From assembly GCF_003790525.1 (NCBI RefSeq), contig NZ_CP033633.1: a stretch of 64,000 bases of DNA. One strand, 5' to 3'. The stretch comes from Escherichia coli. Lineage in GTDB: Bacteria > Pseudomonadota > Gammaproteobacteria > Enterobacterales > Enterobacteriaceae. The notes beneath the pieces are model-generated. The model made no database searches and was not told the origin of the DNA. It was given only the letters and a program-made list of their open reading frames with translations. Position numbers and translations under genes: made by a program. This document shows positions 232-55,455 of the stretch, one piece after another; positions within the stretch are counted from its first letter, which is position 1, and each line of letters opens with the position of its first letter.

Positions 232-567
232 GGGGATTCCTCCATCGATAAATGGATAAATTTCGGGATGAGGCTGAGTGGAATTAATGCGAACAATCGC
301 CGGTAATGACCGGGCAGGGATGAAATAACCAGGGTATTTTCACAGGAACAGCAGAAGGCAGTGAGAGACAGGCACAAAAAAACGACTGGTGAGGTCGGTT
401 TTTTTGCTATTCCGGGGCGGAGTTGGTGACTCTGACCGAAAGGGAAATCACTCTACATCTAACACCATCATAGTAGGCTGCGCTTCTCTTTTTTGCAATC
501 AGAAAAATGACTATAATCGCTCCGTTAGCTCTGTCTGGTGATGCTTCTGCCCTTTAATAAAATATGC

Positions 568-3615: not shown

Positions 3616-4035
3616 GATTGTGGCGGACAGGAAAACAATTAGAATAGCTGCGGGCGCTTGAGGCTGTATGCCGAAAGCGTTTTGTGGACGGCATGCAGCA
3701 GAAAGCCCCAGGCGATCTTTTTATCAATCAACCCAGGGCCCACTGTAATGCCTCAACAACATTATAGTAGCCCGATGACGGCCGAAAGGCAATGGAGGGG
3801 CTGCGATGCCACAACGAACGTTTTTAATAATGTTAATCGTCGTCTGTGTGACGATACTGTGTTTTGTCTGGATGGTGAGGGATTCGCTTTGCGGATTTCG
3901 TATCGAGCAGGGAAATACGGTGCTTGTGGCAACGTTAGCCTACGAAGTTAAACGTTAACGGGCAACACGGCGGCAGGACATCTGCCGCCGGATTGTTGCG
4001 AAGGCTGACCTCAATGCGCCTTGTTTGTCTTTTTT
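3616..4035. repeat. direct repeat copy 1 (~420 bp, ~95 percent identical to copy 2), non-coding element upstream of small gene A
   Basis: Aligned by eye against 4336..4755 (offset 720 bp); contains hairpin CGGCGGCAG-GACATC-CTGCCGCCG and a TATAAT on the minus strand; plus-strand ORF 3658..3951 inside it looks non-coding (Cys/Trp-rich). Confidence 0.8.
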
Positions 4036-4335: not shown

Positions 4336-4755
4336 GATTGTGGCAGACTGAAAATCGATTAGAATAGCGGCGGGCGCTTGAGGCTGTATGCTGAAAGCGT
4401 TTTGTGGACGGCATGCAGCAGAAAGCCCCAGGCGATTTTTTTATCAATCAACCCAGGGCTCTACTGTAATGCATCGACAACATTATAATAGCCCGATGAC
4501 GGCCGAAAGGCAATGGAGGGGCTGCGATGCCACAACGAACGTTTTTAATAATGTTAATCGTCGTCTGTGTGACGATACTGTGTTTTGTCTGGATGGTGAG
4601 GGATTCGCTTTGCGGATTCCGTGTCGAGCAGGGAAACACAGTGCTTGTGGCAACGTTAGCCTACGAAGTTAAACGTTAACGGGCAACACGGCGGCAGGAA
4701 ATCTGCCGCCGGATTGTTGCGAAAGCAAACCTCAATGCGCCCTTTTTTACCTGGA
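4336..4755. repeat. direct repeat copy 2 of the ~420 bp conserved element
   Basis: Near-identical to 3616..4035 with a few substitutions and a 1-bp indel near its end. Confidence 0.8.
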
Positions 4756-51051: not shown

Positions 51052-51531
51052 ACAGGATTAATGGCTGGCAAATATATTACATAAGGATGTATCTGTGGCA
51101 ATAGTGAATATAAGTAGTTGAATAGATCGTTATATTTGATAAATAAGCGTATTATGCTGATTTGTGTGCAGTGTCTGGAGGATTAGATCGCTTAAAAATT
51201 TTAGGCGATCTCTTCTACTAAAAATGATGAAAAAAACAGCATAAAAGATCGTTTGTGAAATTGTTCATTTTTTGACACAGTTCAAAAAAACGACGCTTTT
51301 TAGGGGGTTAAAGAGGGCAACTGTAACCCTGAGAAATCGTGTCGGCTTTTCAAAGCGGTGGAAAAGGGGTATATTGCGGATCGTTATTCAGTGGCTTTTG
51401 GGATCCTCGCGGTCCGGAAAGCCAGAAAACGGCAGAATGCGCCATAAGGCATTCAGGATGTATGGCAGAAACGACGGCAGTTTGCCGGTGCCGGAAGGCT
51501 GAAAAAAGTTTCAGAAGGCCATAAAGGAAAA

Positions 51532-51582
51532 CCCCCATAATCTTCTCATCGAACTTGGCGGAACGTTAGAAGATTATGGGGG
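51532..51582 (-). ncRNA. candidate antisense copy-control RNA region (CopA/Inc-RNA-like stem-loop in repA leader)
   Basis: Perfect 15-bp inverted repeat CCCCCATAATCTTCT / AGAAGATTATGGGGG with about 21 nt loop, about 100 bp upstream of repA; promoter and 3' end not mapped. Confidence 0.35.
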
Positions 51583-51608
51583 CCTCACAGAATACGGGAT
51601 AAGTATAT

Positions 51609-51650
51609 ATGAAACCGTGTCAGAGATTCAACCCTTCGCAGTGTATTAAC
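51609..51650 (+). CDS. possible repA leader peptide (13 aa)
   Basis: ATG AAA CCG TGT ... TAA ([13 protein letters not shown]) 36 bp upstream of the repA start. Confidence 0.25.
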
Positions 51651-51685
51651 GCACGGCATTCTGTTTCCGCCATAAGCGACAGCTT

Positions 51686-52558
51686 GTGGCGGCCCTGAAC
51701 CAGACCTCATTCACTGAAAGCACATACCGTCAGGTAAAGAACCCGAATCCGGTCTTCACACCCCGTGAAGATGCCGGAACGCTGAAGTTCTGCGAAAAAC
51801 TGATGGAAAAGGCCGTGGGCTTCACCTCCCGTTTTGATTTTGCCGCGCATGTGGCGTATGCCCGTTCGCGCGGCCTGCGCCGGCGTATGCCGCCGGTGCT
51901 GCGCCGCCGGGCGATTGATGCGCTGCTGCAGGGGCTGTGTTTCCACTATGACCCGCTGGCCAACCGCGTGCAGTGCTCCATCACCACGCTGGCCATTGAG
52001 TGTGGTCTGGCGACAGAGTCTGAGGCCGGGAAACTCTCCATCACCCGTGCCACCCGTGCCCTGAAGTTCCTGGCAGAGCTGGGGCTGATGACCTACCAGA
52101 CGGAATACGACCCGACAATTGGCTGTAACATTCCGACCGACATCACGTTCACGCCGGCACTGTTTGCCTCACTCGATATCTCTGAAGAGGCGGTGGCTTC
52201 CGCACGCCGCAGCCGCGTGGAATGGGAAAACAAGCTGCGTAAAAAGCAGGGGCTGGATGCGCTGGGTATGGATGAACTGATAGCGAGAGCCTGGCGTTTT
52301 GTGCGCGAGCGTTTCCGCAGTTACCAGGCAGAGCGCAAGGCCCACGGCATGAAACGTGCCCGCGCTCGCCGTGATGCGGGCCGGACCCGTCAGGACATTG
52401 TCACCCTGGTGAAACGGCAGCTGACGCGTGAAATTGCGGAAGGGCGTTTCCGGGGAAGCCTGGAAACCGTGAAGCGCGAAATCGACCGTCGCGTGAAGGA
52501 GCGCATGATAATGTCGCGGAACAACAACTACACACGGCTGGCCACAGCCTCACCCTGA
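51686..52558 (+). CDS. repA: IncFII-family replication initiator RepA (RepA1)
   Basis: GTG start; translation [50 protein letters not shown] matches my memory of R100-type RepA1 nearly throughout. Confidence 0.9.
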
Positions 52559-52920: not shown

Positions 52921-53504
52921 TATGCACCTCCCACGCTAACGCGCGGGCCCCAAACCTCACCGTTCTGAAACCACAGCAAAAAGACATCAGGAATAAAAAC
53001 ACCACACAAACGCAGCACCGTGCCCACCCCTCATAACTGAAAAGCGAGGCCGCCCCCGCCCGAAGGGCGGGAACAACATCGCTTTTAATTATGAATGTTG
53101 TAACTACATTGTCATCGCTGTCAGTCTTCTGGCTGGAAGTCCTCAGTACACGCTCGTAAGCGGCCCTCACGGCCCGCTAACGCGGAGATACGCCCCGACT
53201 TCGGGTAAACCCTCGTCGGGACCACTCCGACCGCGCACAGAAACTCTCTCATGGCTGAAAGCGGGTATGGTCTGGCAGGGCTGGGGATGGGTAAGGTGAA
53301 ATCTATCAATCAGTACCGGCTTACGCCGGGCTTCGGCGGTTTTACTCCTGTGCCATATGCTACAACGGAGTGCCGCCTTCCATGCCGCTGGCGCGGCATC
53401 AGAACAACTGAAGAGTGACGGCGCACATTAGCATCAAACAGACTTGTTAAGCAGTCTTTCAGGGTGTAATCTGAAGACCTGTTAAACAGTCTCAGAGGTG
53501 TGTT

Positions 53505-54049: not shown

Positions 54050-54337
54050 ATGCTTTTAAGTTTTAGTGAGTTAGATGTTCTTATTTATCAGGGGAAGGTT
54101 GGGGGTTTATTTCGTGAAAGAAAAAATGAAAGGGTTGCTACAGACATTGATTCCAGAAACAAGTCATCATCAAGCAGTCATGAATATGATTCAGTTTTAT
54201 CATTTCAATTTATTTGTGATAATGGAAAAGAAATAAATGTGAATTTAACAAATTGGAATATTAACATATTTCCAGGTCAAGAGCTCATTATTTATTTTGT
54301 GGAAAACTCAAAAAAAACAAAAAAATACCATACATGA
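54050..54337 (+). CDS. hypothetical protein, 95 aa, very AT-rich
   Basis: ATG 9 bp after stbE stop with GGGGGTG upstream; Ser-rich; GC far below neighbours. Confidence 0.35.
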   Translation: MLLSFSELDVLIYQGKVGGLFRERKNERVATDIDSRNKSSSSSHEYDSVLSFQFICDNGKEINVNLTNWNINIFPGQELIIYFVENSKKTKKYHT

Positions 54338-54594
54338 TAAAAAACAAAAGTACATCGGAAGTAACTAATAATGTTCAAGAAATGTATAAAGAGTTTTTTT
54401 ATACATCATACTTCAAACTGATAATACCTTTCCTGTTAATCATTTCTTACTTTATGTCATCCATATCTGTGGCTATCATGTCATTCGTTTTATATGTCAT
54501 AATCAGAAGAAGAATAGGAAAAGATTTCTTTTCAGAAATAAAAAGGAAAAGGTTAAAAAAAGAAGATATCATGGGGTTAGAGCACGTAATATAG
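54334..54594 (+). CDS. hypothetical small membrane protein, 86 aa, very AT-rich
   Basis: ATGA start/stop overlap with preceding ORF; one TM (IIPFLLIISYFMSSISVAIMSFVLYVII) and basic C-terminus. Confidence 0.35.
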   Translation: MIKNKSTSEVTNNVQEMYKEFFYTSYFKLIIPFLLIISYFMSSISVAIMSFVLYVIIRRRIGKDFFSEIKRKRLKKEDIMGLEHVI

Positions 54595-54595
54595 G

Positions 54596-54930
54596 GGCGA
54601 CTGGTCCTTATAAGGGACCGTCTAGGGACCGGAGTTCCATTGCTACGCCGGAACCGCCGAAATTTCCGGCGTAGCTCTCTCTTGCCTGGACGTTCTGTTG
54701 TGGGGTTTGAGGGCCAATGGAACGAAAGCGTACGGTAAGGGCTCCGTTTGGGAAACGGACAATATTGTACGGTTGCGTTATCGCGGTAGGGTGTACTCCC
54801 GCGCTGTACGGTGTTTTCAGGAGAATTGGTCTTAATCGGATAACCTAAATGCGATACAGCAAGAGCGACAACTTAAAAGCGATTAAACCTCCGCCGCCAG
54901 AACGGTACAGTCCCTGACACAGGCACCACT
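54596..54930. other. GC-rich structured intergenic element (candidate ncRNA or cis-regulatory structure)
   Basis: Nested inverted repeats: GCTACGCCGGAA...TTCCGGCGTAGC (54643..54675), GGTCC-TTATAA-GGGACC, GTTCCATTG...CAATGGAAC, CCGTTTGGGAAACGG; sits between two AT-rich gene clusters. Confidence 0.4.
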
Positions 54931-54966
54931 GGTATAATCCAGTAAAGAGCATATGGAGAACTTATC

Positions 54967-55203
54967 ATGTCGTTACGCAACTCTATACATGATTTTATAA
55001 TGCTGCTCCCGGCGCTGCTGTTGGTTGGGTGGTTAGTTTTGGTGATAATTCTCATGTTTAGGGATGATAAATGTGACAAAACTTACCGTGAAGGTTCGTT
55101 TCCCGAATTTATTTGTCTCCATTCTGAACGCTCGTCACTTCGAGAAACCGATTCTGAGAGACTCAATGTCAAATATACAGAAAACAATCACAAAAATAGG
55201 TAA
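54967..55203 (+). CDS. hypothetical small membrane protein, 78 aa
   Basis: Follows an extended -10 (TGGTATAAT) at about 54935; one TM helix; AT-rich. Confidence 0.3.
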   Translation: MSLRNSIHDFIMLLPALLLVGWLVLVIILMFRDDKCDKTYREGSFPEFICLHSERSSLRETDSERLNVKYTENNHKNR

Positions 55204-55455
55204 AACTAATAATACTATAGCTAAAAAAATAGTTACTTTTCTGTATCACCTGTCTCTCTCTGCTTTTTCATGGCTACTGTCGTATTTATGTCTGTTGCGC
55301 GGTTTTATCTGTGTGTATAAAATACATCTTTATTCATTGTTATCTGAAAATTTGCGTATGCTGATAAAAAATCCCATTTCTTATTTTCATATTGGCACAT
55401 TTTTATTATCAGGAAAAAAAGTCATCTTCTGGAATACTGGAAAGCAGAAGTTATC

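What the first reader, a model, noticed from the sequence alone, without database searches (positions are those of the whole stretch)
54596..54960. GC-rich, heavily structured ~330 bp non-coding element between two AT-rich gene clusters
Multiple nested inverted repeats (a 12-bp perfect stem GCTACGCCGGAA/TTCCGGCGTAGC, a flanking GTTCCATTG/CAATGGAAC pair, and several short hairpins) in sequence of much higher GC than its surroundings suggest a structured RNA or a protein-recognised DNA structure such as a single-strand initiation or recombination site. An extended -10 (TGGTATAAT, about 54935) at its 3' end may drive the downstream acetyltransferase operon. No coding frame of note crosses it.
Basis: seen in the sequence. 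Interest (0 to 1): 0.5.

Follow-up and report, generated by a model that had tools for sequence, protein, structure and literature searches.

The report
Scrap heap of Tn3-family transposon ends
The GC-rich "structured" stretch is not an RNA gene: it is a patchwork of leftover ends of three different Tn3-family transposons, including a truncated copy of the known miniature element MITESen1, joined to a fragment of a toxin gene, which is an ordinary recombination scar on a conjugative E. coli plasmid.

Summary

The structured-RNA reading is not supported. Rfam finds nothing. Both strands fold about equally and only modestly better than shuffles. The stretch breaks into pieces that occur independently in thousands of other plasmids:
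- The 12-bp-stem palindrome (54642-54675) is built on bases 7-34 of the terminal inverted repeat (IR) of an autonomous Tn3-family transposon.
- 54702-54739 is a complete 38-bp gamma-delta/IS101-type IR.
- 54739-54883 is the left IR plus interior of a MITESen1-family miniature transposon (a TIME), cut off at MITESen1 position 165.
- 54884-54927 is an internal fragment of a RelE/ParE toxin gene.

The MITESen1-type interior aligns in order with the tnpA-tnpR intergenic (res) region of autonomous partner transposons. The short dyads are therefore best read as transposase and resolvase binding sites.

About 75 bp at the left (54595-54642 and 54676-54701) remain unexplained. This is a known kind of element and of low interest. 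Side results are the res homology of MITESen1 and a speculative transposition-immunity role.

The parts
54595..54641 (.). GC-rich segment specific to this plasmid lineage, origin unknown. It starts with GGGG at the stop codon of the AT-rich ORF. It carries a GGTCC/GGGACC dyad and two AGGGACCG copies 11 bp apart.
   Evidence: Repeats are. No match was found outside about 37 plasmids of this lineage. It is not recognisable as a Tn3-type IR.
54642..54675 (.). Perfect 12-bp-stem palindrome. Its core (54643-54670, CTACGCCGGAACCGCCGAAATTTCCGGC) equals bases 7-34 of the terminal IR of an autonomous Tn3-family transposon. I call this IR-C. The outer GGGGTT of the IR is missing.
   Evidence: One search gives the arms. 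The first 26 nt of the core recur in more than 1000 plasmids. The IR GGGGTTCTACGCCGGAACCGCCGAAATTTCCGGCCTATG lies at the end of a tnpR/tnpA transposon in pEntYN10, and its TnpA scores 776 bits against NF033527. Solo copies are present in pLVPK and in Pseudomonas syringae and Aeromonas plasmids, and a 44-bp full palindrome in an Enterobacter kobei plasmid.
54676..54701 (.). Spacer of unknown origin (CTCTCTCTTGCCTGGACGTTCTGTTGT).
   Evidence: No independent matches were found.
54702..54739 (+). IR-A, a complete 38-bp terminal inverted repeat of the Tn3 subgroup (gamma-delta/Tn1000, ISEc63 and IS101 type): GGGGTTTGAGGGCCAATGGAACGAAAGCGTACGGTAAG. The outer end is at 54702 and the transposon interior would lie to the right.
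   Evidence: It is 87% identical to both IRs of IS101 in pSC101. It is about 95% identical to transposon ends that overlap genes annotated as Tn3-like ISEc63-family transposases, and it matches 3389 plasmid records. It matches 37/38 in Salmonella phage SJ1.
54739..54773 (+). IR-B, the left terminal IR of a MITESen1-family TIME (variant GGGCTCCGTTTGGGAAACGGACAATATTGTACGGT). It sits in tandem with IR-A, directly after it.
   Evidence: It aligns with the left IRs of complete elements in PhiR41_1, L011, L002, L003 and L004. A near-identical IR, GGGGCCGTTTGGGAAACGGACAATATTGTACGGTAAG, occurs in L011.
54776..54883 (+). Interior of the MITESen1-family TIME (54779-54883 = MITESen1 positions 62-165), truncated at 54883. 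The right IR is missing. It contains three res-like blocks: 54778-54809, 54832-54857 and 54863-54883.
   Evidence: It aligns over 105 bp, about 90% identical by my count, with the ISfinder MITESen1 sequence taken from PMC13367494 Table S2. It is 93-97% identical to copies in L004 and L002. It aligns in order with the tnpA-tnpR intergenic region of autonomous transposons L021 and L022. The local alignment score is 156, against 65 +/- 11 for shuffles, with 0 of 500 shuffles reaching it, and the reverse-complement control is not significant.
54884..54927 (+). Internal fragment (about codons 22-39 of 91) of a RelE/ParE-family toxin gene. It is joined to the TIME within a stretch of microhomology.
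   Evidence: It matches L007 2131-2181 (92%) and L002 5041-5083 (93%), both inside annotated toxin genes.
54930..54938 (+). TGGTATAAT, an extended -10-like motif, followed by GGAGA (54954-54958) and the ATG (54967) of a 78-aa ORF. It lies just outside the transposon relics, at another recombination breakpoint (54927).
   Evidence: The sequence is. The consensus scan did not call it because the -35 is poor. Homology with the deletion variant L006 resumes at 54927.

Best explanation
The 54596-54960 stretch is a DNA-level recombination scar, not a gene for an RNA. Over time at least three different Tn3-family replicative transposons, or their miniature derivatives, landed next to one another. The site lies downstream of the replicon and toxin-antitoxin module of this IncK2/Z conjugative plasmid. 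Later deletions removed everything except their ends.

What remains, from left to right:
1. A fragment of one terminal inverted repeat, which has been made into a perfect palindrome (the 12-bp stem).
2. A complete 38-bp gamma-delta/IS101-type inverted repeat.
3. Directly after it, the left inverted repeat and interior of a MITESen1-family miniature transposon (a TIME). This is cut at its position 165 by a microhomology-mediated deletion.
4. A 44-bp fragment of a RelE/ParE toxin gene, to which that deletion joined the TIME.

The high GC content and the dense dyad symmetry come from what these sequences were: binding sites for Tn3-family transposase (the IRs) and for a serine resolvase (the res-like interior).

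Shown here: the homologies, the mosaic boundaries, the existence of complete copies elsewhere with a 5-bp target-site duplication, the autonomous partner transposons, and the res homology.

Inferred: the order of events. With only left ends present, the relic cannot transpose as a normal two-ended element. Any residual activity (transposase binding, target immunity, resolvase recombination) would need proteins supplied in trans.
For: - The window is an IncK2/Z plasmid identical to NZ_CP029742.1.
- A megablast of the region hits 1448 plasmids, but only 27 cover at least 80% of it. The other hits match discrete sub-segments.
- Segment boundaries come from a local BLAST against the fetched loci.
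- MITESen1 family: the alignment with complete elements is. L004 3932-4188 is a 257-bp element flanked by TACTT on both sides. The published 256-bp MITESen1 sequence matches it.
- IR-A matches the IS101 IRs and the ends of Tn1000/ISEc63-type transposons.
- IR-C is the IR of an autonomous tnpR-tnpA transposon.
- Autonomous transposons carrying MITESen1-type IRs exist: L022 7001-10865, with tnpA scoring 1122 bits against NF033527 and a serine recombinase gene.
- The interior is homologous to their res region.
- The toxin fragment is shown.
- No Rfam family matches, and fold z-scores are symmetric.
- The variant L006 lacks 54626-54776. This cuts the IR-B-to-interior continuity seen in complete elements, so it is a deletion derivative.
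Against: - About 75 bp (54595-54641 and 54676-54701) match nothing outside this lineage and are not explained by the transposon model.
- The IR-C fragment lacks its outer GGGGTT, and I cannot show how it became a perfect palindrome.
- IR-B starts GGGC rather than the canonical GGGG.
- The whole mosaic is 98-100% conserved across IncK, IncF and IncI-gamma/K1 plasmids and in E. albertii. This fits recent spread as part of a module, but it does not exclude retained function.
- No transposase or resolvase binding was tested.
Confidence: 0.85

Rival explanations
1. The relics have been put to use by the plasmid. The solo IRs bind cognate Tn3-family transposases and give the plasmid target (transposition) immunity against three classes of Tn3-family elements. 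In addition, or instead, the nearly complete res-like site acts as a resolvase-dependent multimer-resolution or module-exchange site when a cognate TnpR is present in the cell.
For: - IR-A is a full 38-bp IR, and IR-B keeps most of the inner domain.
- All three res-like blocks are retained, and they are the most conserved columns between TIMEs and autonomous transposons.
- No other copy of these IRs and no Tn3-family transposase is present in the 64-kb window.
- The mosaic is conserved at 98-100% on several plasmid backbones.
- From my own knowledge of the Tn3 and gamma-delta literature, a single IR is enough to confer immunity. IS101 carries a functional res site, as cited in PMC13367494.
Against: - No resolvase or Tn3 transposase is encoded in the window.
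- Natural variants that delete all three IRs exist (L006 type).
- The last half-site of block 3 is altered by the truncation (GCGATAG becomes GCGATTA).
- The high identity is equally well explained by recent horizontal spread.
- Nothing was tested functionally.
Confidence: 0.1
2. The region encodes a structured non-coding RNA or a structured 5'/3' UTR: for example, a terminator or stability element for the upstream AT-rich ORF, or a leader for the downstream ORFs.
For: - Strong local hairpins sit immediately after the stop codon at 54594.
- The + strand fold has z = -2.32.
- The 12-bp GC-rich stem is followed by the pyrimidine-rich run CTCTCTCTT.
Against: - No Rfam match, even at E <= 10.
- The minus strand folds almost as well (z = -1.97).
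- The terminator scan calls nothing on the + strand.
- The stems coincide with transposon IRs and res dyads that recur in unrelated contexts and in both orientations.
- The homologs show no compensatory substitutions.
- The variant lacking 151 bp keeps the same flanking genes.
Confidence: 0.04
3. It is a single-strand initiation (ssi, G4-type or primosome assembly) site used in plasmid replication or conjugative DNA transfer.
For: - A MITESen1 copy lies about 160 bp beyond oriR in a Klebsiella IncFII plasmid. From memory, this is roughly where the R1/R100 G-site lies.
- Several hairpins are present in the region.
Against: - That Klebsiella copy is flanked by a 5-bp target-site duplication and Tn3-type IRs, so it is an insertion and not part of the origin.
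- pO157-type IncF replicons lack it.
- A blastn search against 50,697 phage records gave no hit to any microvirus complementary-strand origin.
- The element occurs in either orientation relative to repA.
- In the window it lies about 2 kb from the origin, beyond a toxin-antitoxin module.
Confidence: 0.02

Closest known systems
MITESen1 (ISfinder; a 256-bp Tn3-derived inverted-repeat miniature element, TIME)
   Same: Window 54779-54883 aligns with MITESen1 positions 62-165 at about 90% identity. The preceding 35 bp is a variant of its left IR. There is no transposase gene. Complete relatives carry 38-bp GGGG...TAAG-type IRs and a 5-bp target-site duplication.
   Different: The window copy is truncated after position 165, so the right IR is gone. 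It lacks the 26-bp hairpin at MITESen1 positions 37-61, as does the PhiR41_1 copy. Its left IR is diverged (it starts GGGC) and is preceded by a second, unrelated IR in tandem.
IS101 of pSC101, and the ends of gamma-delta (Tn1000) and ISEc63
   Same: 54702-54739 is a full-length 38-bp IR. It is 87% identical to both IS101 IRs and about 95% identical to Tn1000/ISEc63-type ends.
   Different: Only one IR is present. The sequence that follows it is not IS101 or Tn1000 interior but a MITESen1-family element.
Autonomous Tn3-family transposons with a tnpA-res-tnpR layout (Providencia rettgeri p15758D_70, L022 7001-10865; K. pneumoniae pHNAH212836K, L021)
   Same: They have MITESen1-type IRs (84-92% identical). 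Their tnpA-tnpR intergenic region aligns in order with the TIME interior retained in the window.
   Different: The window has no tnpA or tnpR. Similarity in the res region is limited to three blocks, roughly 60% identical overall by my reading of the alignment.
Tn3-family transposon of ETEC plasmid pEntYN10 (L017)
   Same: Bases 7-34 of its IR match the core of the 12-bp-stem palindrome in all 28 positions.
   Different: The window fragment lacks the outer GGGGTT. The internal 7-bp dyad of the IR has been extended to a perfect 12-bp palindrome.

Membership tests
TIME / MITESen1 (Tn3-derived miniature element) | Sequence homology to the MITESen1 reference | tested here: met
   54779-54883 aligns with MITESen1 positions 62-165 over 105 bp at about 90% identity. 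It is 93-97% identical to copies in L004 and L002.
TIME / MITESen1 (Tn3-derived miniature element) | Two terminal Tn3-type inverted repeats of about 38 bp | tested here: not met
   Only the left IR is present (54739-54773). The element is cut at 54883 and joined to a toxin-gene fragment. It is therefore a truncated relic, not an intact member.
TIME / MITESen1 (Tn3-derived miniature element) | 5-bp target-site duplication flanking the element | not testable with these tools
   One end is missing in the window. The feature is met for the complete copy L004 3932-4188, which is flanked by TACTT on both sides.
TIME / MITESen1 (Tn3-derived miniature element) | No transposase gene, size 50-500 bp | tested here: met
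   The remnant is 145 bp, and only ORFs of 68 aa or fewer cross it.
Tn3-family terminal inverted repeat (Tn3 subgroup, gamma-delta/IS101 type) | 38 bp, GGGG at the outer end, ...ACGGTAAG at the inner end, and homology to the IRs of known elements | tested here: met
   54702-54739 is 33/38 identical to both IS101 IRs. It is about 95% identical to ends that overlap annotated Tn3-like ISEc63-family tnpA genes.
res site of a Tn3-family serine resolvase | Homology to the tnpA-tnpR intergenic region of a cognate autonomous transposon | tested here: met
   The alignment runs in the same order. The score is 156 against 65 +/- 11 for shuffles, with 0 of 500 reaching it, and it is orientation-specific.
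res site of a Tn3-family serine resolvase | Resolvase binding to the sub-sites and strand exchange at site I | not testable with these tools
   This needs footprinting and recombination assays. No res site of this transposon subgroup has been mapped experimentally, to my knowledge.
Structured RNA family (Rfam) | A match to a curated covariance model | tested here: not met
   No family reaches its gathering score in the region. The best permissive matches have E = 0.14-4.6 and fall far below threshold.
Structured RNA (novel) | Strand-specific stability and compensatory covariation | tested here: not met
   z = -2.32 on the + strand and -1.97 on the - strand. Five homologs differ at about 11 sites with no compensatory pairs, though the set is too similar to be powerful.
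G4-type single-strand initiation site | Sequence similarity to phage G4/alpha3-type complementary-strand origins, and a fixed position and orientation relative to oriR | tested here: not met
   There are no microvirus hits in the phage collection. The element is absent from pO157-type replicons and is inverted in L004 relative to repA. Priming activity itself was not tested.

The most novel reading that the evidence does not exclude
The tight cluster of three unrelated Tn3-family terminal repeats plus a nearly intact res-like site is kept next to the replicon because it works as a passive defence and recombination module. On this reading, each solo IR recruits its cognate transposase and makes the plasmid immune to insertion by that class of transposon. 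The res-like site lets resident resolvases resolve multimers or swap maintenance modules between IncK, IncF and IncI-gamma plasmids.
Probability: 0.08. Interest if true: 0.5.

Novelty: new member of a known kind. Interest (0 to 1): 0.15.

Why it matters
Mainly as a caution. Dense palindromes in GC-rich non-coding plasmid DNA can be relics of transposon ends rather than RNA genes or replication signals, and unannotated TIMEs and solo IRs are very common. The IR types seen here match 1065, 3389 and 4733 PLSDB plasmid records.

Two modest by-products came out of the analysis:
- The MITESen1 interior is homologous to the tnpA-tnpR intergenic (res) region of small autonomous Tn3-family transposons. 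A 2026 survey (PMC13367494) could not relate it to the Tn3, Tn21 or Tn1721 res sites. The homology suggests which transposase and resolvase mobilise and resolve this widespread element, which is linked to resistance genes.
- Solo IR clusters next to plasmid replicons offer a testable case for whether transposition immunity is exploited by plasmids.

Tried and rejected
- **Rfam.** Gathering thresholds on the whole window and permissive thresholds on 54300-55300 gave nothing relevant.
- **Phage collection.** A blastn search for G4-type origins or other relatives found only a TIME copy in phage-plasmid PhiR41_1, an IR in a P1-like phage, and a short chance-level hit.
- **ssi / G-site idea.** I raised this because a related element sits just past oriR in a Klebsiella IncFII plasmid. 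I rejected it once that copy proved to be a 257-bp insertion with Tn3-type IRs and a TACTT duplication.
- **Group II intron domain V.** I considered this because of GTACGGTT motifs. I dropped it when the 38-bp spacing of GTACGGT turned out to mark the inner ends of tandem Tn3-type IRs.
- **IS101 as the source of the interior.** Only the IR matches. The IS101 interior does not.
- **Covariation among full-length homologs.** They are 99% identical, so the test has no power.
- **Origin of 54595-54641 and 54676-54701.** A blastn search against the plasmid collection found nothing outside this lineage.
- **The 9-bp arm at 54634-54642 as a remnant of an inverted IR-A.** Only the 9 bp match, so chance cannot be excluded.
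- **Consensus promoter scan.** It did not call the TGGTATAAT site.

Full report
**Context.** The window is a conjugative IncK2/Z (I-complex) E. coli plasmid. Rfam finds the repZ pseudoknot at 51524-51673, just upstream of an IncFII-family RepA gene (51686-52558), and two sok RNAs. The finding region is 100% identical to NZ_CP029742.1. That record annotates IncI-type tra, pil and shufflon genes upstream. Downstream of repA it annotates a small hypothetical gene, a Phd/YefM-RelE toxin-antitoxin pair, an AT-rich hypothetical gene, then a gap with no annotated gene, then a ProQ/FinO gene. The finding sits in that gap.

- The 12-bp perfect inverted repeat lies at 54642-54653 / 54664-54675 and the 9-bp pair at 54634-54642 / 54715-54723, along with several shorter dyads.
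- GC rises from 0.23-0.31 to 0.55 and falls again.
- TGGTATAAT is at 54930-54938, with a Shine-Dalgarno sequence and an ATG behind it.
- Only small ORFs cross the region.
- By my estimate a 12-bp perfect hairpin is far beyond chance (about 0.002 expected in 365 bp). The 9-bp pair is not (about 0.25 expected).
- As RNA the region folds somewhat better than shuffles, and nearly equally on both strands (z = -2.32 and -1.97). That is the signature of DNA palindromes rather than of a strand-specific RNA.

**The region is a mosaic.** A megablast against 72,556 plasmids hits 1448 records, but only 27 contain most of the region. The rest match discrete sub-segments. A local BLAST against the fetched loci fixes the boundaries:
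- 54779/54787-54883 recurs on its own in IncF, Klebsiella IncFII and ColE1-type plasmids.
- 54884-54927 matches the inside of RelE/ParE toxin genes.
- Homology with a deletion variant (L006) covers up to 54625, then 54777-54820, then resumes at 54927.

**The recurring segment is MITESen1.**
- Alignment with the other plasmids and the flanking sequence show that the full unit is about 257 bp. It is bounded by 38-bp inverted repeats of Tn3 type (GGGGTCAGTTTGG...GTACGGTAAG).
- In the Klebsiella plasmid L004 (3932-4188) it is flanked by a perfect 5-bp duplication, TACTT. This is the hallmark of Tn3-family transposition.
- The supplement of Gomi and Yano 2026 (PMC13367494, Table S2) gives the ISfinder sequence of MITESen1, a 256-bp Tn3-derived inverted-repeat miniature element (TIME). 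It is this element.
- Window 54779-54883 aligns with MITESen1 positions 62-165 at about 90% identity.
- The 35 bp before it (54739-54773) are a variant of the left IR, nearly identical to the IR of the copy in L011.
- Like the copy in phage-plasmid PhiR41_1, the window copy lacks the 26-bp hairpin of the reference.
- The element stops at 54883. Its right third and right IR are gone.

**Two further Tn3-family ends.**
- Immediately before IR-B lies 54702-54739, GGGGTTTGAGGGCCAATGGAACGAAAGCGTACGGTAAG. This is a complete 38-bp IR, 87% identical to both IRs of IS101 in pSC101. It is about 95% identical to ends that overlap genes annotated as Tn3-like ISEc63-family transposases, including one on a large E. 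coli K-12 plasmid record.
- These tandem IRs explain the GTACGGT repeats spaced 38-39 bp apart.
- In the ETEC plasmid pEntYN10 the same sequence is the terminal IR (GGGGTTCTACGCCGGAACCGCCGAAATTTCCGGCCTATG) of an autonomous transposon with a serine recombinase and a Tn3-family transposase. The transposase scores 776 bits against NF033527, above the cut-off of 500.
- That IR already contains a 7-bp internal dyad. In the window the dyad is extended to 12 bp. In an Enterobacter kobei plasmid it is extended to a 44-bp perfect palindrome of two outer ends.
- How the perfect palindrome arose is not shown. Correction of a quasi-palindrome by template switching is my inference.

**The interior is res-like.**
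- Searching with the MITESen1 right IR finds 4733 plasmid records. A few of the matches lie under Tn3 transposase genes.
- Two of these, in Providencia rettgeri (L022 7001-10865) and K. pneumoniae (L021), are small autonomous transposons. Their tnpA scores 1122 bits against NF033527. In L022 a serine recombinase gene (tnpR) runs divergently from tnpA. The L021 copy is cut short by IS26 and has no annotated tnpR.
- Their tnpA-tnpR intergenic region is where res lies in Tn3-type elements. It aligns in order with the TIME interior in three blocks built around the motif TTATCGC / GCGATA.
- For the window segment the local alignment score is 156, against 65 +/- 11 for shuffles. None of 500 shuffles reaches it, and the reverse-complement control is unremarkable.
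- The window keeps all three blocks (54778-54809, 54832-57 and 54863-83). The last half-site is clipped by the truncation.
- The 2026 survey reported that the MITESen1 interior shows no similarity to the Tn3, Tn21 or Tn1721 res sites. The comparison here is with a closer partner.

**The right-hand junctions.**
- 54884-54927 corresponds to about codons 22-39 of a 91-codon RelE/ParE toxin gene. That gene follows an RHH antitoxin gene downstream of repA in pO157-type and other IncF plasmids.
- In L002 a MITESen1 copy lies about 940 bp upstream of the homologous toxin position.
- The junction falls in a short microhomology...GCGATAACTGCTGACGC in the TIME and ...AGTAAACCTGCTGCCGC in the toxin gene. 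This fits an illegitimate deletion.
- At 54927 homology switches again, and the TGGTATAAT motif begins three bases later.
- The L006-type variant deletes 54626-54776. This breaks the IR-B-to-interior continuity that complete elements have, so it is derived from the window type.

- The structured-RNA idea has no support. There is no Rfam family, folding is symmetric, there are no compensatory changes among five 99%-identical homologs, and the stems coincide with transposon parts that occur independently and in both orientations.
- The ssi idea is contradicted by the target-site duplication around the origin-proximal copy, its absence from other IncF replicons and the lack of any microvirus-origin hit in the phage search.
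- The 'protein-recognised recombination site' alternative is essentially right, in the sense that these are transposase and resolvase recognition sequences.
- The promoter motif is real as sequence but untested. The acetyltransferase it might serve is frameshifted here.

**Unexplained.** 54595-54641 and 54676-54701 match nothing outside this lineage. The first begins with GGGG exactly at the upstream stop codon. It carries a GGTCC/GGGACC dyad and two AGGGACCG copies 11 bp apart.

**Verdict.** This is an ordinary recombination scar made of known mobile-element ends, so interest is low. The most novel reading that cannot be excluded is that such solo-IR clusters confer transposition immunity, or that the res-like site is used by resident resolvases. 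I give that about 8%.

Noticed in passing
window 3652-3808 and 4372-4529: Two tandem hok/sok loci. Rfam sok scores 123 and 117 bits, and two Hok/Gef genes are annotated in the matching record.
   Followed up: no
window 54050-54594: The AT-rich hypothetical gene is a single 181-aa ORF in related plasmids (L001, L018, L020). In the window it is split into two ORFs by a frameshift in an A-run near 54295-54337.
   Followed up: partly
window 55358-55944: The serine acetyltransferase gene (195 aa in L001) is frameshifted near 55387-55420. The downstream 'acetyltransferase operon' is therefore a pseudogene in this plasmid, and it is not listed as a CDS in the matching record.
   Followed up: partly
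window 53036-53395: This non-coding stretch downstream of the replication origin is conserved at 74-83% in IncF and IncFII plasmids (L002, L004, L007). It is a better candidate than the finding for the IncFII-type G-site / single-strand initiation signal.
   Followed up: no
L010 2997-3040 (Enterobacter kobei pSTN0717-53-2): A 44-bp perfect palindrome, GGGGTTCTACGCCGGAACCGCCGAAATTTCCGGCGTAGAACCCC, made of two outer ends of a Tn3-family IR fused head to head. It could be a minimal IR-IR element. It lies next to what I read, from the sequence only, as the 3' end of an IS3-family transposase gene.
   Followed up: partly
L014 about 2455-2545 (Pseudomonas syringae pYunnan2.4): A Tn21-type IR is directly followed by an IR of the pEntYN10-transposon type. 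This is the same tandem arrangement of unrelated Tn3-family IRs as IR-A/IR-B in the window, which suggests a recurrent pattern.
   Followed up: no
L004 3932-4188 (Klebsiella pneumoniae MGH 39 IncFII plasmid): A complete 257-bp MITESen1 copy with a TACTT target duplication is inserted between oriR and the conserved downstream region of an IncFII replicon, apparently without harming replication.
   Followed up: partly
L021 10012-10180 and L022 10012-10177: The tnpA-tnpR intergenic regions of small autonomous Tn3-family transposons carry repeated TGCGATAA / TTATCGCA motifs, some in direct rather than inverted arrangement. This res architecture has not been mapped experimentally, to my knowledge.
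   Followed up: partly
window 374-462 (- strand): A borderline Rfam hit to AgrB (41.6 bits against a gathering score of 40).
   Followed up: no
window 57671-58846 (- strand) and about 60776-60889: An IS91-family transposase gene and, further on, the EAST1 enterotoxin gene astA, as annotated in the matching record. The region to the right of the finding is an IS-rich accessory area.
   Followed up: no
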